Made by a program: the position numbers and the translations under genes
Notes under the pieces: generated by a model
The model's input: only the letters and a program-made list of their open reading frames with translations
The model's database searches: none
What the model was told of the DNA's origin: nothing
DNA from: a virus
Virus record (IMG/VR): IMGVR_UViG_3300044213_000060
Coordinates: 1 to 64,000 of that record
DNA: 64,000 bases
Reading direction: 5' to 3' (one strand)
Shown here: in pieces, positions 2,608 through 11,250 of the stretch
Layout of the letters: each line of letters opens with the position of its first letter
Numbering within the stretch: position 1 is the first letter of the stretch

Positions 2608-5448
2608 TTATGCGGTAGCACTAAGAAGCTTGCGCGATATATCTTTGTGATCTTTTAATATATTCAACATATCTGCGTTTTGTCCAACAATCTGTTTAAA
2701 CAAATTTGCCAATTCAGTCATTTTAGATGCCATATCATCTGTTTGTACACGTGATGTTACTGCACCTCGACCAGTTACCAATTCTGGACCACGTTCTCCA
2801 ACAATTGTGGGACCTTCAAAATACCCACCATCATCCCGGTGTTCTATATGTGGAGGATCACCTCTTAAGGTATTAAATCCGTATTTTGCTAATAATCCTG
2901 CGCTGTTTAACTCACTAACCTGTTGACTGTTTAAATCAAGTGCACGACCTTTTCCGTGCCAACTGGCACCAGGTTTGCCTACTGGGTTTCCTTTTTTGCC
3001 CCCACGAACCCATTCATCGTACAACTTTTGTTGTTCTTCGTCACTGCGGTATGATGTATTAACCTGCACAGGTTTTCCGTACTCGCTGATCATTTTTAAG
3101 AAATCAGTACCAACGTCTTGATCAAGATTTTTAAAATGCGCTTCATCGCCTAACTGTGTTCCTGAAAAATTAACAAGTTTAAGTGCATCCGACAGCCCGC
3201 CACCGCCTTGTTGTAGCGTATCTCCAATTGTTTTATGTGGACCACCAAAAAATCCTAATATACTCTGGCCAGCTTTTTTTTCATCTAACAAACCAAATGT
3301 TAAACCTGAAGCTATACTACCTGCAGCACTTGCAGCACGTTCGCCACCGGTCGCATCTCTTCCGCTGGCTATACCAAGATTTTCCTCAGCATGCGTGGCT
3401 CCTTGGTATCCTTCATATATTGAAGTAGCCGCTGCCAACGGTAAAGCCGCTTTGCCGGCTACTCGTCCTAAAAATTTCCCGGCTCGTCCAATTTTGCCTA
3501 ACAAGCCGCCTTTTTTACTAACTGCACCGGCTGCATCTTCAGCTGCGTCTAGTAATCCGCTACCACCTGGTGTTTTTCCTAGATGAGATAATACCAATGG
3601 TATTGCGGATGCAATAACCCCCGGCAATATAGACATAGCAAGTATTTTCCAGTCCATGCCTTTTATTGTGTCTTTTATAGCATCTACCATTCTACCTTCA
3701 GACACATCTCGTAGTACTTTAACTGACTCTTGTACTTGTTTCATGGTCTCATCAACTGCACTGGCAAATAGTCCTAGATTATTAGCAGCTAACCCTTCCA
3801 TGTCAGCTAAGAATTGTTGATTTTTTTCTACTAACGAAACTTCGGGCCCAGCACCACCTTGAGCACCTTGATTTTGCCGTTCAGCAATAAGTGTAGCAGT
3901 TTTTTGTGCATCTGCAAATCTGTTTGCCCATTGAGTTTGATTGTTTATAGATTTAGCAGCATCTGCACCAGCACCACTTTGTACTCGACCAAGCGTTTTA
4001 CCTAATTGATTAGATTGTTCTAGTATTTCTTTTTGATTACTTTGATAAGACTTAATTACTCCTGCTTGATCTAAATTATTTTGTTTAGCAAGTTCAAATT
4101 GTTCATCTTGTGCTTTTCGTATACCATCATTAGTAGCACGACTAATAGCTAGATCTTTGCTTATAACCTGACCGTATATTTGTTTTTCTCTGAACGCACG
4201 TTGATCTTCTGTACTCATTAGAGCCATTGCTTCAACTGTTTTTTTGCGTTCTTTTTCGTTTAATCCATTTAGATAACTATTAAATGCCAAAGTATCGTTA
4301 TCTTGACGCAGTTTTTCCATTCTTGCTTTTGCGTCTTGACCAGTAATATCTGCGATAGTTTTTAGACTTCTAGCGTATTCTGCGGTTTGTGCAGCTACTT
4401 CAGCATTACTGGCTTTTAACTGTCCACTAGGACCGGCCATTAACGCCATAGTTTGTGCATATGCATCGGCTTGATCCTGTGCAGTCATGCCCAGTGCATA
4501 CATGCCTTCTTTGGCGGCTCTGCCACCAGTTTCCATTGCATCTGCTAGACGTTTGCTAGCACCGCCTACACTTAAACCAGTCTTTGATAAATTATCTTTG
4601 TTTGCTGAAACTGCTTTACTAAATTGTTCTAGAGTTAATCCTGCACGTTGGCTAGTATGAATCATTTCCATCATACCGCCGGCAAATACAGCACCCGAAG
4701 ATGACATTTCTTGGAAATTGCTGATCAACTTCCTTGTTTCTGTCATCATAAAGCCGATGCCGGCTTTTACCAATTCAGCTAATGCAGATGATACTGTTCC
4801 TGCAGCAGCTCCTAGTGCCGAAACTGCAACCCCGGCAACTCCCAGTGCCCCGCCAGCTCCAGCAACTGCTTTTCCAAAGTCCATCATAGCACCGGCGCCA
4901 ACTTGTATGCCACCGTTAAATTGATCAACTTGTGCCGTCATTGTTGCGGCAGCTGCGTCCATGGCATCGCCACCGGCCAAAGCCGCTTTACCACCGGCAA
5001 AAAATGCTTTAGATGCTCCTGCTATAGCAGTTCCGGCTAGTGTGCCCAATGATGTTTTAAATATTTCTGTTGCTTTATTTCTAGCATTGGCGTTTTCTAA
5101 TTGACTCTTGGCTTCAATTAATGCTGATTTTTTGTGTTGATCAGATGTATTGTTTATTTGTTTGCGTAGATAATCCAGTTCTTCTTCTAGATCTTCAGCA
5201 GTTTTAGTACCTTTTTTATACTCGGCATTTAAATCTTCAATTGTTTTTGTTATTTGTTCGTAGGTCTTTTTAAATTTTTTATTGGCATCTTGTGTGGCTT
5301 TAATAAACTTCAGAGTTTCGGCCGCAGACACTTGATCGCTCTTGCCCATTTTTTTCAAATTTACAAGATGCTTATCTATTAAATCTGCATATTCTTTACT
5401 AGACGCTCGCAGTCGTTCCAGTTCGTCGTTTATTTCTTTGTCATCCAT
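2608..5448 (-). CDS. Tape-measure-like tail protein with C-terminal M15 (D-Ala-D-Ala/L,D) zinc peptidase domain
   Basis: Long Ala/Gly-rich helical and coiled-coil body; C-terminal SYRS...QQKLY...PGASWHGKGRALD...DPPHIE (M15 HxxxxxxD and H ligands) and a GERGPELV motif common in tape measure proteins. Confidence 0.7.
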   Translation of the reverse strand: MDDKEINDELERLRASSKEYADLIDKHLVNLKKMGKSDQVSAAETLKFIKATQDANKKFKKTYEQITKTIEDLNAEYKKGTKTAEDLEEELDYLRKQINNTSDQHKKSALIEAKSQLENANARNKATEIFKTSLGTLAGTAIAGASKAFFAGGKAALAGGDAMDAAAATMTAQVDQFNGGIQVGAGAMMDFGKAVAGAGGALGVAGVAVSALGAAAGTVSSALAELVKAGIGFMMTETRKLISNFQEMSSSGAVFAGGMMEMIHTSQRAGLTLEQFSKAVSANKDNLSKTGLSVGGASKRLADAMETGGRAAKEGMYALGMTAQDQADAYAQTMALMAGPSGQLKASNAEVAAQTAEYARSLKTIADITGQDAKARMEKLRQDNDTLAFNSYLNGLNEKERKKTVEAMALMSTEDQRAFREKQIYGQVISKDLAISRATNDGIRKAQDEQFELAKQNNLDQAGVIKSYQSNQKEILEQSNQLGKTLGRVQSGAGADAAKSINNQTQWANRFADAQKTATLIAERQNQGAQGGAGPEVSLVEKNQQFLADMEGLAANNLGLFASAVDETMKQVQESVKVLRDVSEGRMVDAIKDTIKGMDWKILAMSILPGVIASAIPLVLSHLGKTPGGSGLLDAAEDAAGAVSKKGGLLGKIGRAGKFLGRVAGKAALPLAAATSIYEGYQGATHAEENLGIASGRDATGGERAASAAGSIASGLTFGLLDEKKAGQSILGFFGGPHKTIGDTLQQGGGGLSDALKLVNFSGTQLGDEAHFKNLDQDVGTDFLKMISEYGKPVQVNTSYRSDEEQQKLYDEWVRGGKKGNPVGKPGASWHGKGRALDLNSQQVSELNSAGLLAKYGFNTLRGDPPHIEHRDDGGYFEGPTIVGERGPELVTGRGAVTSRVQTDDMASKMTELANLFKQIVGQNADMLNILKDHKDISRKLLSATA

Positions 5449-6352: not shown

Positions 6353-6567
6353 ACTCAACCGCAGATGAAATTGATGCGTTAATCAACGAATATGAATTAA
6401 GTTCAAAAGCCTTACGTGAAGAAGCATTACGAATGTGTTGGTATATGAGAGGTGGACTCACTTATACTGAAGCTATGTATTTGAGCAATAGTGAAAAAGA
6501 TTTAATCAATAAAATAATCAAAGATAACATGCAAACAACCAAAGACTCAGGACTTCCTTTTTTCTAA
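6349..6567 (+). CDS. Small baseplate hub assembly protein (gp51-like)
   Basis: 72 aa, overlaps the gp26-like gene; WYMRGGLTYTEAMYLS..E motif and gp26-gp51 synteny. Confidence 0.55.
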   Translation: MNSTADEIDALINEYELSSKALREEALRMCWYMRGGLTYTEAMYLSNSEKDLINKIIKDNMQTTKDSGLPFF

Positions 6568-6568
6568 T

Positions 6569-7081
6569 ATGAATTTAAAATCAATAATTACAGAAACTGC
6601 CGATTGGCCAAAACCAGGAATTAATTTCCTTGACATAATTCCCATACTCGAAACTCCACTGGCATTCGACTACTGCGTAAAGCAGTTTATGCCGTTTGCA
6701 GAACAATCATCAAGTATTGTTGCAATTGAAAGTCGTGGATTTCCAATTGGCGCAGTATTAGCACAACAACTAAAACTACCATTGGTATTAGTTCGTAAAC
6801 CAAATAAATTACCAAGACCGGTATACTCTCAGAGTTATACAACTGAATACAGCACTGACTCCGTCGAAATTAAACAATCAGCAAACGTAAGAGACTACCC
6901 GTTAATTGTTGATGATTTACTTGCAACCGGCGGCACTGTAACGGCCGCAGCAGATTTATTAAAAAATAACTTTGCGGTTAATTTAGTTAGATGTGCAGTT
7001 ATAATAAATCTTAGTTTTTTACCTGGTGCAGAGTTGTTAAAGCAAAATCAAATTGAATTATTAAGTTTGGAAACTTATTAA
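6569..7081 (+). CDS. apt: Adenine phosphoribosyltransferase
   Basis: DWPKPGINFLDI, IESRGF, VRKPNKLP, EYS and the PRPP-binding motif IVDDLLATGGT. Confidence 0.93.
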   Translation: MNLKSIITETADWPKPGINFLDIIPILETPLAFDYCVKQFMPFAEQSSSIVAIESRGFPIGAVLAQQLKLPLVLVRKPNKLPRPVYSQSYTTEYSTDSVEIKQSANVRDYPLIVDDLLATGGTVTAAADLLKNNFAVNLVRCAVIINLSFLPGAELLKQNQIELLSLETY

Positions 7082-7611
7082 TGGATAATATTATATTATT
7101 AGCACTTAAAGAAGAAGCTCCTGCATTAGCTGCAAGACCAGATGTGTTTTTTACTGGAGTTGGCAAAGTAAATGCAGCTATTGTTGCGGCACAGTTAATT
7201 GAACGTTATAAACCTACACAAGTAATTAACTTTGGCACTGCAGGTGGTATTACTGTTGTATCAGGACTGCATCAAGTAACTCGTTTTGTACAACGAGATA
7301 TGAATTGTTCAGCACTAGGGTTCGCAGTAGGGCAAACACCTTACGAGACTGAACTAGCACTAGGCACAGGACTAACTTGTAGCTCAGGAGATAGTTTTGT
7401 TGACAATCCAGTGTTAAACGTACCCGCAGACCTAGTAGATATGGAAGCATATGCTATAGCCAAGGCATGCCATTTAGCTAATACCAAATTTCTTTGTTAT
7501 AAGTTTATTAGTGATACTGCTGATCATAATGCCAGCACCGAATGGGTTACTATGATCTCAGCTGGTGAAAAGTATTACTTAGAAAAGCTAAAACAACTAC
7601 AAATCATATAA
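7081..7611 (+). CDS. mtnN: 5'-methylthioadenosine/S-adenosylhomocysteine nucleosidase (PNP/MTAN family)
   Basis: GVGKVNAA, INFGTAG, SGDSF, VDMEAYA and KFISD motifs; 1-nt overlap with apt. Confidence 0.85.
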   Translation: MDNIILLALKEEAPALAARPDVFFTGVGKVNAAIVAAQLIERYKPTQVINFGTAGGITVVSGLHQVTRFVQRDMNCSALGFAVGQTPYETELALGTGLTCSSGDSFVDNPVLNVPADLVDMEAYAIAKACHLANTKFLCYKFISDTADHNASTEWVTMISAGEKYYLEKLKQLQII

Positions 7612-8025
7612 GATGTCTAAAGACATCTGTTGTTTCGCTCTCGCTCACAACACTTTTCTTACTCGCTTTAGCGAGATAGTTTCATCCAGATTGTTTGGTC
7701 ACACTTTGCCCGCACAGGGCAAAGATTGCTTCATCCGAGTTACCTCAGTCACTTAGCGTTACTGCATTACAGAGGCGGTTGTCCGGTACCTCGAGCAGCG
7801 TCTTTTACAACGGCGGGCTTGTATCTATACGCTAACATACATACAAACCGTGTAGCATCAACTGCTACGTCTTTTTCAGCCTTAGAATCCTATTCAAACA
7901 ATCAAACTCGGGCATTACGAGTCTACATCCTTCTCGGGTAGTGATTGAGCACTCTTAACGGCAGAGATTTACGTCCGAGCGACCCTAGGTCCTCTTTTCA
8001 TGTACACAAGAAATTAGCCTGTGTG
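7611..8025 (-). ncRNA. Candidate large structured ncRNA (~420 nt) of unknown class
   Basis: Gap with no credible ORF, visibly more GC-rich than its flanks, containing about ten stem-loops and a 7-bp loop-to-distal pairing; begins ~5 nt after the nuclease stop codon. Confidence 0.6.
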
Positions 8026-8029
8026 AGCC

Positions 8030-8464
8030 TTAACCGTTTAATTTGTGTTTAATGTGGGAGCCATGGATACGGACTTGTATATGTCCGTTATAATAATCGT
8101 CGGATTCTAAGACTTGGTGTCTAAATTGTTCTCTTGCTTCTATGTACGAGCATTCTGCTTTACTATTGCAATAAAAAAGTATTTCTCTTTTAAAATTTTC
8201 TTTGCCTAATAAATTCACATCCTTAGTAAGTTCTGGACTGCTACCATAGTAGTCTCGCCAATCACTATCTATTTTACTGCGAATTTTCTTTTTCTTCTTT
8301 GTGCCGTTTTTGAGTTTTACTGTTTTTTGTGTTGTTTTAGAGAATTTTGCTAGTTTTTTGCCTATGTATTTGCGTCCTGATATTGTATTTGTGATCAAAT
8401 ATACAAACCCCACGCAGTTGTCGGGTAAGTTTTCGATACTAGTGCCTTGATAAAACCATGTCAT
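8030..8464 (-). CDS. GIY-YIG endonuclease (T4 endonuclease II/DenA-like)
   Basis: GFVYLITN...KYIGKK, WRDYYGSS, a conserved E and YYNG; 144 aa single domain with a basic insertion. Confidence 0.8.
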   Translation of the reverse strand: MTWFYQGTSIENLPDNCVGFVYLITNTISGRKYIGKKLAKFSKTTQKTVKLKNGTKKKKKIRSKIDSDWRDYYGSSPELTKDVNLLGKENFKREILFYCNSKAECSYIEAREQFRHQVLESDDYYNGHIQVRIHGSHIKHKLNG

Positions 8465-8503
8465 TGTGTAACATAATTATGCCTTAATGTGCCATGATAA
8501 AAA

Positions 8504-10273
8504 TTATGTTATATCTACGTCTGTGTTATAGGTTGTGTACCCGTTTTCTTTAACTACACGCAGAGTATTATTAACACGTCCGGCTAGTTCGTCTTTGTGA
8601 CTGACTAACCAAATACTTTTGTTACTATCCCTGCTCATTTTCTTGAGAATACCTAAACTGTTTTCTACTCCGCTACTATCCATTCCCGAATCAACTAACT
8701 CGTCAATGAACAACAAGTTAATAGGTTGATATAAACTTTCCCAAACATCCCGGAATGCCCAGGATAAACTTAAAATAAGTCTATTGCGTTCGCCGCGTGA
8801 TAAGTTATCAAAGTCTAGATCGCGTCCTAGTTCTGTAATGCTAACCGTTAAGTCATTGTTAAATTTTACAGTATGTGGCAAGCCGATACGATCTAAGTAT
8901 TGTCCTAGTCGTGCGTTTAAGTAGGATAAGTTTTGATCAATAATACGCTTACGGATAAACGAATCTTTGTTGGTTAATAGTTTTAACAAAAACTCTTGAT
9001 GGTCTTTAATATTGGTTAATTCGTTTATTAAATCAAAACTGATTCCTTCAACTGCTTGTTCCTGCATATCCCGAATTTGTTCTGCATAAGGATCTGTCTC
9101 ACTTTCTTTTGCAGTAAGTTGAGTTAGCACACTAGCCATGCTACTGCGGTGTTCAAATGCATCCGACTCGTCGCTGTAATATACCTGCGGTTGAGTGCCT
9201 AATTCGCCTAATTCTTTTAACGCATCAGTATGTTCCATCCATTGTGAGTTGGTTGCTAGTGCTTGTAGTGCGGCTTCTTGCAATGCTAATTGTTTGTCTG
9301 CTAACATCTTTTCGTGATTGTTATCATGTAGGTCTTGCCCACACGCATGGCATCGGTGGTTTTCTAAAGCAGTAATTTCTGCTTTAAGTTGGTCAATTAG
9401 TTTTTGCTCGCGTTTTTCATCTAGTTCGCAACGACGAATCCAGGAGTTTAATTCGGCAATTGCTTTTCTTTTTACATTATACTCAGATAAAAGTTTATGT
9501 GCTGATAGTTCTGCTTCAATGTCTAAGGTGCTGAGTTCGTCGTAGGCAGACTGCAGTTTTGCAATATCTTCTTGACGTTTATTTTGCCAAATTGTTTGTT
9601 TACGCTTTGTGGATTCAATTTGTTCTTCGATACGCCGGTTAGCATCTGTTACTGCTTTAATTCTAAATTCTTCTTGACTGATAGCATCCTTTGTGGCTTT
9701 TGTTTGTTCTTTTAATGCTTCGGCTTTTTCACTTAGTAATGTAATACCTAACAACTGCTCAATAATAGCACGCTGGTCGTTGGCTTTTAATGCTAAGAAT
9801 GGCTCGGTGTATGTATTAAGTGCAACAATGTGCTTGAACATATCGTGGCTCATACCTAACATACGCTCGATGTCTGCTTGGGTTTCTCTACTATCGCCTT
9901 GTGCTTCATCAGTGATTTCTTTTTCTTGATCATCAACAAAGAATTTCATAACGCCGGGTTTTCGACCACGCTCGATACGATAGTTAATGCCGTCTTTTTC
10001 AAAATCAACACATACCATCATACCTTTGGTATTTGTTTTGTTGATTAGGTTATCTTTTTTAATGTTAGTTAACGCATTACCATATAATGCAAATGACAAC
10101 GCATTGATGATCGTAGTTTTGCCAGTACCATTTCTAGCACCCGAATCGTCCCCGCCTAAGTCTAGATTTTCACCTAAGACTAATGTAAGATCATTGCGGT
10201 CAAAGTTAACTGCTTGCGTGGCATTGCCCACGCTCATAAAGTTTTTTACAGTAAGGTCTTTTATCTTAAACAT
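8504..10273 (-). CDS. Recombination ATPase subunit (T4 gp46/Rad50/SbcC-like)
   Basis: KNFMSVGN, Walker A GARNGTGKTT, coiled coil with CHAC zinc hook, signature LSRGE, Walker B LFIDE, and SH motif. Confidence 0.95.
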   Translation of the reverse strand: MFKIKDLTVKNFMSVGNATQAVNFDRNDLTLVLGENLDLGGDDSGARNGTGKTTIINALSFALYGNALTNIKKDNLINKTNTKGMMVCVDFEKDGINYRIERGRKPGVMKFFVDDQEKEITDEAQGDSRETQADIERMLGMSHDMFKHIVALNTYTEPFLALKANDQRAIIEQLLGITLLSEKAEALKEQTKATKDAISQEEFRIKAVTDANRRIEEQIESTKRKQTIWQNKRQEDIAKLQSAYDELSTLDIEAELSAHKLLSEYNVKRKAIAELNSWIRRCELDEKREQKLIDQLKAEITALENHRCHACGQDLHDNNHEKMLADKQLALQEAALQALATNSQWMEHTDALKELGELGTQPQVYYSDESDAFEHRSSMASVLTQLTAKESETDPYAEQIRDMQEQAVEGISFDLINELTNIKDHQEFLLKLLTNKDSFIRKRIIDQNLSYLNARLGQYLDRIGLPHTVKFNNDLTVSITELGRDLDFDNLSRGERNRLILSLSWAFRDVWESLYQPINLLFIDELVDSGMDSSGVENSLGILKKMSRDSNKSIWLVSHKDELAGRVNNTLRVVKENGYTTYNTDVDIT

Positions 10274-10868
10274 GCATTTTCCAATGAGATAGGTCTTGCT
10301 CGATCAAATCTTCAAAATTGTCAATGAAATTGTTTATTATTATAATATCTCGATCATGAAAAGTCAAAGTTTTTGTATATGTTGTTTTATTGATATACAT
10401 AGGTTGTAACTGTACACTTGGTATTTCTAAAAAGTTAGTTATTTTATCAAGCACAGCCTGCGGATCTTTTTTTATATTGTCGTAAAGTAAAATCATAGTG
10501 TTAGCAGGCAACCTTTTCATTATTGGTACATAGTCGAAATACTGTAGAAATGTTGAAATAAAGATTGAATCATCTATGTCAGATTTCCAAAAATTATATA
10601 AACTATTGGCATAGCTGTAAGGATCTCGAAAAATAACTGAGCGATGAGTAGCAACAGAATCTAGTAAAGCTAGTTGATAACTGTCTAGCTGCCATAAATT
10701 TGTATTAAAATTTACACTAAAATCTTGTTCTGCAAAATAATTTTGATACACACCGTTGTGGACTATTTGAATACTTGGTTCTTTTTCAGAATTAAATCTC
10801 AGATTTTTAAACAGCCACGATGTAGCAGTTTTAGCTGTTCCGTAATTAATGTAGTGTTTAAATCGCAT
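10266..10868 (-). CDS. Sulfotransferase-family (P-loop) protein
   Basis: GTAKTATSWL (5'-PSB-like loop), FRDP..YANSLY (3'-PB-like), LLYDNIKKDPQAVLDKITNFL. The likely start is MRFKHY at 10868, later than the ORF-track start at 10901. Confidence 0.6.
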   Translation of the reverse strand: MRFKHYINYGTAKTATSWLFKNLRFNSEKEPSIQIVHNGVYQNYFAEQDFSVNFNTNLWQLDSYQLALLDSVATHRSVIFRDPYSYANSLYNFWKSDIDDSIFISTFLQYFDYVPIMKRLPANTMILLYDNIKKDPQAVLDKITNFLEIPSVQLQPMYINKTTYTKTLTFHDRDIIIINNFIDNFEDLIEQDLSHWKMHV

Positions 10869-11250
10869 GAATAAAATCACGTATTGGGTGGAAGAATTCA
10901 AAAATTAAATCGCCCATAAAAAATAAAATATGATTATCTGTTACAGAATAGTCTACTTTTATAGAGTTTATATTAGCATAGTTAACGAAATTACTATGGT
11001 ATATATTTTTACCAATGCCTAATTTGTTCCCCGTAACCCTCCAAAATTCATCAAAAATAATCATTGTTATTTCTACTGGGTGAGACATAATTTTTGTATT
11101 ATCACAGTTTATGCGTATACTATAAATTTTATCATAATTAGGTTGATAATCAAATACATGAGAGCCAGTACCTGATTTAACACTAACAGTTTGATTGTCA
11201 AAAAATATATTAAAATCTGTTCCAGCAGAATAGAAGATTTCTAATTTCAT
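10858..11250 (-). CDS. Hypothetical protein (AT-rich)
   Basis: 130-aa ORF overlapping the gp47-like stop and the sulfotransferase-like start. Confidence 0.6.
   Translation of the reverse strand: MKLEIFYSAGTDFNIFFDNQTVSVKSGTGSHVFDYQPNYDKIYSIRINCDNTKIMSHPVEITMIIFDEFWRVTGNKLGIGKNIYHSNFVNYANINSIKVDYSVTDNHILFFMGDLIFEFFHPIRDFIHAI

What the first reader, a model, noticed from the sequence alone, without database searches (positions are those of the whole stretch)
7611..8025. ~420-nt multi-hairpin, pseudoknotted non-coding element directly behind a GIY-YIG nuclease
Seen (plus-strand coordinates): stems AGATGTC/GACATCT (7611-7628), TGTTGT/ACAACA, CTCGC/GCGAG, CTTTGCCC/GGGCAAAG (7704-7724), nested GAGG-CGG/CCG-CCTC (7772-7792), TTGTAT-TAT/ATA-ATACAA (7819-7846), GTAGCA/TGCTAC, ACTCG/CGAGT, CAATCA/TGATTG, CTCT/AGAG and ACACA/TGTGT. 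The loop ACGCTAA (7829-7835) is complementary to TTAGCGT (7753-7759), giving a pseudoknot. TTCATCC and CGTCTTTT each occur twice. Several G-U wobbles favour the minus strand, so the element would be co-transcribed immediately after the nuclease stop. I recognise no tRNA, tmRNA or RNase P signature. Inference: a large unclassified phage ncRNA, possibly an RNA partner of the basic GIY-YIG protein (guide, scaffold or antitoxin), a ribozyme, or a structured replication/recombination site.
Basis: partly seen in the sequence, partly recalled or inferred. Interest (0 to 1): 0.85.

Follow-up and report, generated by a model that had tools for sequence, protein, structure and literature searches.

The report
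Full-length Polynucleobacter-1 twin-box phage RNA
The 418-base gene-free gap behind a small nuclease gene of this uncultured giant T4-like phage encodes a real, triply knotted non-coding RNA; its first third is an orphan motif catalogued in 2010, its uncatalogued rest carries one 7-letter word twice, always identical, and its job is still unknown.

Summary
Window 7612-8029 (minus strand) is a ~418-nt structured RNA with no conserved reading frame.

- **Known part:** the 5' 134 nt (7896-8029) match Rfam RF01718, Polynucleobacter-1 (88.7 bits, cut-off 37). "Unclassified" is therefore only partly right.
- **Uncatalogued part:** the 3' ~285 nt has no Rfam match but is the best-conserved part in hundreds of IMG/VR T4-like contigs.
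- **Structure:** on 86 non-redundant relatives, 63 of 86 pairs show compensatory changes.
- **Twin boxes:** two 7-nt boxes, RGAURAN (7730-7736 and 7681-7687), are identical in 166 of 170 loci across seven haplotypes. They switched together at least 32 times. No complementary partner was found.
- **Context:** the locus is syntenic, not mobile: gp46 -> small nuclease -> RNA >< gp51/gp26-like baseplate genes.
- **Nuclease link:** in related phages an unrelated PD-(D/E)XK nuclease replaces the GIY-YIG gene and the RNA stays. ORFs are sometimes inserted between nuclease and RNA. GIY-YIG residues do not track the boxes.

I therefore read the RNA as an autonomous phage ncRNA at the end of the recombination operon, not the nuclease's guide. 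Its function is unproven.

This scan has reported the same family many times on other DNA.

The parts
7612..8029 (-). Full-length structured ncRNA (~418 nt; RNA position p = 8030 - window coordinate)
   Evidence: Conserved end to end behind homologous nuclease genes. 86-sequence alignment A1: 63 of 86 pairs with compensatory changes, 91.9% of cells paired against 76% in shuffles and ~40% in slid controls. At least 7 stop codons in the best sense frame.
7896..8029 (-). 5' domain = Rfam RF01718 Polynucleobacter-1 (P1-P5)
   Evidence: cmscan 88.7 bits, gathering 37, E 6.8e-19, model positions 1-141.
8016..8029 (-). 5'-terminal H-type pseudoknot: nt 1-4 pair with nt 11-14 in the loop of P1 (P1 = 8004-8024)
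   Evidence: Pairs 1-14 and 2-13 covary (GC 56, AU 23). This places the folded RNA's first base right after the TAA stop.
7816..7849 (-). P7 long hairpin; its loop 7829-7835 forms a pseudoknot with 7753-7759
   Evidence: 12 of 12 stem pairs and 7 of 7 pseudoknot pairs have changes on both sides.
7753..7759 (-). 3' strand of the P7-loop pseudoknot (UAACGCUAA region)
   Evidence: Covaries with the loop: GCUAGUAU/AUACUAG, GCUGAUAU/AUAUCAG, AUAGCAG/CUGCU.
7762..7811 (-). Core double pseudoknot: stem A 7807-7811/7778-7782, P8 7795-7798/7762-7765, P9 7788-7791/7773-7776. It holds the near-invariant GGUACCGGACAACCGCCUCUG (7770-7790).
   Evidence: Stem A covaries (GUUGU/ACAAC to GUCGU/ACGAC and GUCAU/AUGAC). 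P8 has 4 of 4 pairs with double changes. P9 has A-U to U-A in 6 sequences. The 21-mer retrieves more than 120 viral loci.
7730..7736 (-). Twin box A (GGAUGAA), preceded by invariant CUC
   Evidence: Identical to box B in 166 of 170 loci across 7 haplotypes. Coordinated switches on a tree.
7704..7724 (-). P10 hairpin between the twin boxes
   Evidence: 8-bp conserved stem, 91.6% of cells paired.
7681..7687 (-). Twin box B (GGAUGAA), preceded by invariant UCU
7628..7652 (-). P12 hairpin enclosing the conserved UGAGCG-NN-AGCGAAA
   Evidence: Inner stem pairs covary (AU 31, UA 29, CG 16, GC 7).
7611..7628 (-). Terminal hairpin P13, terminator-like on both strands
   Evidence: Stem covaries (5 of 6 pairs with double changes). 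Listed as terminator-like on + and -. Conservation ends here.
8030..8464 (-). 144-aa SegE-type GIY-YIG nuclease-domain-only protein (upstream neighbour)
   Evidence: Pfam PF19835, 1.3e-33, profile positions 1-123 of 123. GIY/YIG, R, E and N motifs conserved in 112 unique homologues.
8504..10273 (-). gp46 (SbcC/Rad50-like) recombination nuclease subunit, same operon
   Evidence: phrog_77 5.5e-100, AAA_23/SMC_N. Found upstream in 145 RNA loci.

Best explanation
The gap encodes the full-length form of the Polynucleobacter-1 RNA family. It is an autonomous, highly structured non-coding RNA of uncultured giant T4-like aquatic phages.

Shown:
- It is a conserved RNA-level structure of ~418 nt with three pseudoknots.
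- It lies on the same strand as, and 0-50 nt after, the last gene of the gp47-gp46-nuclease operon.
- It ends at a covarying hairpin where convergent transcription meets.

Inferred:
- It is made as the 3' end of that early/middle transcript, since no late promoter lies upstream, and is probably released by processing at its knotted 5' end.
- It acts in trans as a folded RNA or RNP.
- Its two single-stranded, always-identical 7-nt boxes, held on either side of hairpin P10, form a bivalent site. That site binds two copies, or two equivalent halves, of one fast-evolving partner.

The RNA is the nuclease's operon neighbour, not its guide.
For: - RF01718 match at 88.7 bits.
- Full-length conservation in 192 of 200 fetched loci by nhmmer. 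The apparent exceptions hold a divergent twin-box version.
- 63 of 86 pairs have compensatory changes; covariation score 0.472 against 0.178 in shuffles and at most 0.076 in slid controls.
- No open frame.
- Twin boxes are identical in 166 of 170 loci over 7 haplotypes. There were at least 20, 6 and 14 coordinated switches at the three variable positions. The joint parsimony score equals the score of each box alone.
- The boxes are unpaired in the consensus structure.
- Synteny gp46 -> nuclease -> RNA >< orf72/gp26-like.
- The RNA is retained when GIY-YIG is replaced by PDDEXK_15. Box words there are partly the same and partly new (ACAUGAA, ACAGGAA, ACAGAAA).
- ORFs of 0.8-1 kb are inserted between nuclease and RNA in about ten loci.
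- No TATAAATA within 300 nt upstream in 0 of 156 loci.
- The terminal hairpin is terminator-like.
- A chromosomal copy in Polynucleobacter also carries twin boxes (AGCGAAAGU twice), seen in Weinberg's alignment file.
Against: - There is no expression data.
- No cultured phage carries the RNA, so transcript ends and trans action are inferred.
- No partner complementary to the boxes was found inside the RNA, within +-6 kb, or in the 92.9-kb record.
- The bivalent-reader idea rests only on the identity constraint.
- Strict adjacency to a small nuclease in nearly every locus is also what a functional pair would show.
Confidence: 0.5

Rival explanations
1. Nuclease partner. The RNA is a guide, scaffold, activator or antitoxin-like regulator of the small nuclease encoded just upstream. 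The twin boxes direct a dimeric nuclease to two identical target half-sites.
For: - The RNA starts 0-50 nt after the nuclease stop in nearly all loci found from either side.
- The GIY-YIG protein is a catalytic domain only, with no DNA-binding domain.
- A second, unrelated small nuclease (PDDEXK_15) sits in the same place before the RNA.
- Twin identical boxes would fit the two strands of a palindromic target.
Against: - The whole neighbourhood is syntenic, so adjacency is inherited.
- Two unrelated folds are unlikely to bind one RNA.
- PDDEXK_15 is annotated as a Holliday-junction resolvase in cultured phages. This fits a recombination nuclease next to gp46/47.
- ORFs are inserted between nuclease and RNA in about ten loci.
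- GIY-YIG relatives in 442 cultured phage records sit in other contexts; the three records searched in full have no RF01718 match.
- No GIY-YIG column tracks the box states; best normalised MI is 0.18 for R294.
- The box word is neither avoided nor enriched in the window, and no inverted-repeat target is seen.
Confidence: 0.1
2. Cis-acting 3'-UTR element. It would be a large terminator, insulator or mRNA-stability module that closes the gp47-gp46-nuclease operon where it collides with the convergent baseplate operon, or it would regulate the upstream genes.
For: - It is always the last element of the operon, on the same strand, facing convergent genes.
- It has a bidirectional terminator-like final hairpin.
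- No promoter of its own was detected.
Against: - A single hairpin would be enough for termination or 3' protection.
- 400 nt with three covarying pseudoknots, a near-invariant 21-nt core and co-evolving twin boxes is far more than such a role explains.
- The family also occurs in a bacterial chromosome.
Confidence: 0.15
3. Replication or recombination signal. The transcript would serve as an origin RNA (R-loop primer, as at T4 oriF/oriG). Alternatively, the twin boxes would be iteron-like DNA repeats read by an initiator. The element sits next to the recombination genes and the baseplate-hub cluster, much as T4 oriF sits beside genes 25/26/51 (gene order from my own knowledge).
For: - One copy in the 92.9-kb record.
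- Position between the gp46/47-nuclease module and gp51/gp26-like genes.
- Identical direct repeats must change together if one protein reads them as DNA.
Against: - Selection is clearly on RNA pairing, including strand-specific G-U pairs. This is not needed for a DNA site or a simple R-loop.
- There is no AT-rich unwinding element or iteron array.
- None of the four neighbouring proteins covaries with the boxes.
- No replication data exist.
Confidence: 0.12
4. Self-processing ribozyme. The knotted 5' end would cleave the RNA from the nuclease mRNA, or the conserved core would catalyse another reaction.
For: - The fold begins exactly at the first base after the stop codon, with a 5'-terminal pseudoknot.
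- The core is a near-invariant double pseudoknot.
- Its size and complexity resemble other large 'ornate' RNAs.
Against: - There is no Rfam ribozyme hit even at E up to 10.
- The hammerhead-like UGAGCG..AGCGAAA lies in a simple hairpin, not a three-way junction.
- There is no biochemical evidence.
Confidence: 0.06

Closest known systems
Polynucleobacter-1 RNA motif (Rfam RF01718; Weinberg et al. 2010, Genome Biol 11:R31, PMC2864571)
   Same: - The 5' 134 nt match the whole model well above the gathering score.
- It lies downstream of the same gene family (GOS11034/PSSM2_218-like, here recognised as SegE-type GIY-YIG), as the paper noted.
- It comes from aquatic metagenomes.
- The function is unknown in both cases.
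   Different: - The Rfam model covers only 141 positions; here the RNA is ~418 nt.
- The uncatalogued 3' two-thirds is the better conserved part. It holds two further pseudoknots, a near-invariant core and the twin boxes.
- The paper found it in no purified phage. Here it sits in a clear T4-like phage record.
- Divergent members escape the Rfam model altogether.
Large 'ornate' bacterial and phage RNAs of unknown or recently found function (GOLLD, ROOL, OLE, raiA, HEARO/omega RNA)
   Same: Several hundred nt, many covarying helices and pseudoknots, found by comparative genomics, and partly phage-borne (resemblance from my own knowledge).
   Different: - No sequence or structure match to any of them in Rfam 15.
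- None is described with a pair of co-evolving identical boxes.
- HEARO is the guide of a large IscB nuclease, whereas here the evidence speaks against guiding.
Systems that need two identical short repeats: matched take-off/landing codons of T4 gene 60 bypassing, R repeats or template-jump motifs in reverse transcription (DRT2, telomerase template ends), plasmid iterons
   Same: Two short identical words about 50 nt apart, around a stable hairpin, that must change together.
   Different: - No open frame leads into box A. In the window a UAA lies two codons upstream.
- No reverse transcriptase gene is nearby.
- The boxes lie in a structured RNA, not in an iteron array.
- These are analogies recalled from memory, not tested memberships.

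Membership tests
Rfam RF01718 Polynucleobacter-1 | Covariance-model score at or above the curated gathering score (37 bits) over the whole model | tested here: met
   88.7 bits, model positions 1-141 of 141, window 7896-8029 minus strand.
Rfam RF01718 Polynucleobacter-1 | Location downstream of the GOS11034/PSSM2_218-like gene family | tested here: met
   The RNA starts at the base after the stop of the 144-aa GIY-YIG gene. The same holds in 20 of 20 blast-positive loci scanned.
Rfam RF01718 Polynucleobacter-1 | Helices supported by covariation | tested here: met
   P1 5 of 5, P3 3 of 3 and P4 4 of 6 pairs have double changes.
RNA-guided nuclease systems (IscB/TnpB/Cas-like: nuclease plus adjacent guide RNA) | A variable guide segment matching targets, with nuclease and RNA dependent on each other | tested here: not met
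   - No target complementary to the boxes was found.
- The nuclease fold is swapped while the RNA is kept.
- There is no protein-box covariation.
- Binding and cleavage are not testable here.
Mobile homing-endonuclease cassette (free-standing Seg-like HEG with cargo) | Sporadic presence in varied genomic contexts | tested here: not met
   In this clade the context is fixed (gp46 upstream in 145 loci, orf72 downstream in 137). Distant relatives in cultured cyanophages do sit in other contexts, without the RNA.
Known self-cleaving ribozymes, group I/II introns, RNase P, tmRNA, tRNA | Match to the family model | tested here: not met
   No other Rfam hit at E up to 10 in 6500-9500. ARAGORN finds nothing.
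Protein-coding gene | Conserved open reading frame | tested here: not met
   Median of 7 stops in the best sense frame and 4 in the best antisense frame. The longest ORF ranges from 26 to 103 aa, on varying strands.

The most novel reading that the evidence does not exclude
The twin boxes are a programmable two-site address. The RNA would act as an adaptor that brings a small dimeric structure-specific nuclease (GIY-YIG, or PD-(D/E)XK in sister phages) or another phage machine to two identical 7-nt sites on a nucleic-acid target. Rapid coordinated box switching would retarget it. That would make it a minimal RNA-addressed system unlike Cas, IscB or TnpB.
Probability: 0.04. Interest if true: 0.95.

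Novelty: new variant of a known kind. Interest (0 to 1): 0.5.

Why it matters
- Polynucleobacter-1 has been an orphan Rfam entry since 2010. This window shows that the catalogued 141 nt are only the head of a ~420-nt, triply pseudoknotted RNA.
- The RNA is a fixed feature of a large clade of uncultured giant T4-like aquatic phages.
- The twin boxes give a concrete experimental handle. Something must read both, and finding it would assign a function.
- Large ornate RNAs have repeatedly turned out to be new machines; HEARO became the IscB guide. That makes this a reasonable candidate for follow-up.
- The evidence here lowers the tempting RNA-guided-nuclease reading.
- The Rfam model should be extended and a second subtype added.

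Tried and rejected
- **Cultured phages, DNA search:** blastn of the region against 50,697 phage records found no match.
- **Bacterial genomes:** the 21-mer core found 6 loci. Only one, a 1.7-kb phage-like MAG contig, holds the RNA; the rest are chance matches.
- **Partner for the boxes:**
  - Exact reverse complements within +-6 kb show no own-haplotype peak. The apparent peaks are a conserved coding motif of orf72 in one clade.
  - Wobble-tolerant search inside the RNA finds only the conserved UUGUUU (129-134), which pairs with any haplotype.
  - There is no second twin and no inverted repeat in the 92.9-kb record.
  - The box word is not enriched or avoided.
- **Protein reader:** no column of GIY-YIG, orf72, the gp26-like protein or gp46 tracks the boxes beyond phylogenetic noise.
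- **Translational bypass** (GGA plus stop at both boxes): rejected. No frame leads in, and other clades have non-codon-like boxes.
- **Hammerhead reading** of UGAUGAGCG..CGAAAC: rejected. It is a simple hairpin and has no Rfam hit.
- **Late promoter upstream:** none.
- **'GIY-YIG loci without RNA'** (L009, L038-42, L062): this was wrong. They hold a divergent twin-box RNA (ACAUGAA) missed by nhmmer and RF01718.

Full report
**What is there**

Window 7612-8029 lies between convergent genes. On the plus strand a PNP_UDP_1 nucleosidase ends at 7611. On the minus strand a 144-aa protein ends at 8030. That protein matches the whole SegE_GIY-YIG profile (PF19835, 1.3e-33) and has no further domain. 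Upstream on the same strand is gp46 (SbcC/Rad50-like). The record is a 92.9-kb IMG/VR fragment that CheckV estimates at 26% complete, so the phage is a giant T4-like one.

**Known part**

An Rfam scan gives one hit: RF01718 Polynucleobacter-1 at 7896-8029, minus strand, 88.7 bits against a gathering score of 37. Weinberg et al. 2010 described this motif from aquatic metagenomes and one Polynucleobacter genome. They noted that it lies downstream of GOS11034/PSSM2_218-like genes, that 'the 3' half is not always detected', and that no purified phage had it. Their Stockholm file already aligns part of the region beyond the Rfam model for a few sequences. It also shows that the Polynucleobacter chromosomal copy is full length.

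**Unknown part**

The other ~285 nt (7612-7895) have no Rfam hit at E up to 10. They are nevertheless the best-conserved part.
- Behind 80 homologues of the nuclease gene, blastn and an nhmmer profile find the whole ~415 nt.
- Searching instead with the RNA's near-invariant 21-mer returns more than 120 viral loci. Wherever enough flank is held, a GIY-YIG homologue (38-82% identity) lies just upstream.
- Loci that first looked RNA-free hold a divergent version that both nhmmer and RF01718 miss.

**Structure**

I aligned 86 sequences that are less than 93% identical to each other (A1). RNAalifold gave 64 pairs, 43 of them with compensatory changes. I then curated a structure from mutual information. 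It has 86 pairs in 18 helices, with these counts:

| Measure | Structure | Shuffles | Slid controls |
|---|---|---|---|
| Cells paired | 91.9% | 76% | about 40% |
| Covariation score | 0.472 | 0.178 | at most 0.076 |

63 pairs have changes on both sides.

Three pseudoknots are supported:
- nt 1-4 with 11-14 at the very 5' end;
- GUUGU 219-223 with ACAAC 248-252, inside a core that also holds P8 and P9.

Invariant G-U pairs fix the strand as minus. No frame is open on either strand. The last hairpin (7611-7628) covaries, is terminator-like on both strands, and marks the end of conservation.

**Twin boxes**

Two single-stranded 7-mers, RGAURAN, lie 49 nt apart on either side of hairpin P10. Box A follows an invariant CUC and box B an invariant UCU.
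- They are identical in 85 of 86 aligned sequences and in 166 of 170 loci, across seven haplotypes.
- On a tree built without these columns, the three variable positions changed at least 20, 6 and 14 times. The joint parsimony score equals the score of each box alone, so both boxes changed on the same branches. There were at least 32 haplotype switches in all.
- Other clades carry other words in the same frame: ACAUGAA, ACAGGAA and ACAGAAA, and AGCGAAA in Polynucleobacter.

I found no complementary partner for the boxes:
- none inside the RNA;
- none within +-6 kb;
- none in the 92.9-kb record.

No residue of the four neighbouring proteins tracks the boxes. The constraint is real and unexplained. 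It implies either one reader for both boxes or a need for the boxes to match each other.

**Relation to the nuclease**

The neighbourhood is syntenic, not mobile. gp46 lies upstream in 145 loci. A small gp51-like ORF (orf72) lies convergent downstream in 137 loci, and a gp26-like baseplate gene in 119. The nucleosidase/APRT pair of this window is a rare insertion, seen in 2 loci.

New here, as far as I can tell: in three loci found through the RNA core, the gene before the RNA is not GIY-YIG but a 172-aa PDDEXK_15 nuclease. Of 80 loci fetched through that protein, 29 have the RNA by nhmmer, and several more have it by their twin boxes. All are in the same gp46 -> nuclease -> RNA >< orf72 slot. 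Cultured-phage records annotate that family as a Holliday-junction resolvase.

My inference is that the slot encodes the recombination module's structure-specific nuclease, filled by either of two folds, and that the RNA is simply the next element.

Further evidence against dependence:
- ORFs of 0.8-1 kb with no known family are inserted between nuclease and RNA in about ten loci.
- GIY-YIG relatives occur in 442 cultured phage records. The three inspected sit in other contexts, and none of the three has an RF01718 match.

**Verdict**

I commit to an autonomous structured RNA made at the 3' end of the recombination operon, acting through a bivalent twin-box site, at confidence 0.5. The rivals are a cis 3'-UTR role, a replication signal, a nuclease partner and a ribozyme.

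This scan has reported the same family on many other genomes, with the same conclusions. My analysis reached them independently before I read those notes. It adds the PD-(D/E)XK swap, the switch counts, the protein-covariation test and the 5' pseudoknot.

Noticed in passing
window 6569-7611 (+): The APRT and MTA/SAH-nucleosidase-like (PNP_UDP_1) gene pair lies between the RNA and the gp51-like ORF. Among ~190 related loci only 2 have it at this place, so it is a recent insertion.
   Followed up: partly
L148:11831-12352, L175:9825-10343, L108:335-853; L208-L287: A PDDEXK_15 nuclease (PF24608; 'RusA-like/Holliday junction resolvase' in cultured phage records) replaces the GIY-YIG gene in the same slot after gp46 in sister phages, with the twin-box RNA kept.
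   Followed up: yes
L085:8190-9017, L098:536-1606, L048:3426-4451, L116:2219-3208, L156:3617-4645: ORFs of 275-356 aa with no Pfam family are inserted between the GIY-YIG gene and the RNA in about ten loci.
   Followed up: partly
L138:2910-3128, L178:7514-7735: A 72-73-aa ORF with a QSregVF_b-like match is inserted between the GIY-YIG gene and the RNA.
   Followed up: no
L009:2078-2929, L028:2068-2973: A radical-SAM gene lies between gp46 and the GIY-YIG gene in some relatives.
   Followed up: no
window 7927-7938 (RNA positions 92 and 103): Non-Watson-Crick covariation U/C with C/U (53 against 33 sequences) next to the invariant CC/GG stem. It looks like a register switch between U92-A102 and A91-U103.
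   Followed up: no
L009, L038-L042, L062 (about 3430-3900): A second subtype of the RNA, with a different 5' domain and boxes ACAUGAA, is missed by RF01718 and by my nhmmer profile. The Rfam family therefore under-reports the clade.
   Followed up: partly
L290 (Prochlorococcus phage P-HM2, 161341-161925): The GIY-YIG homologue is annotated as two short ORFs, so it may be split or decayed. In cultured cyanophages this family is labelled 'NAD synthetase', which looks like a misnomer carried over from phrog_447.
   Followed up: no
window 10266-11250 (-): A sulfotransferase-like gene and a 130-aa ORF lie upstream of gp46. Only one other locus (L106) shares them.
   Followed up: no
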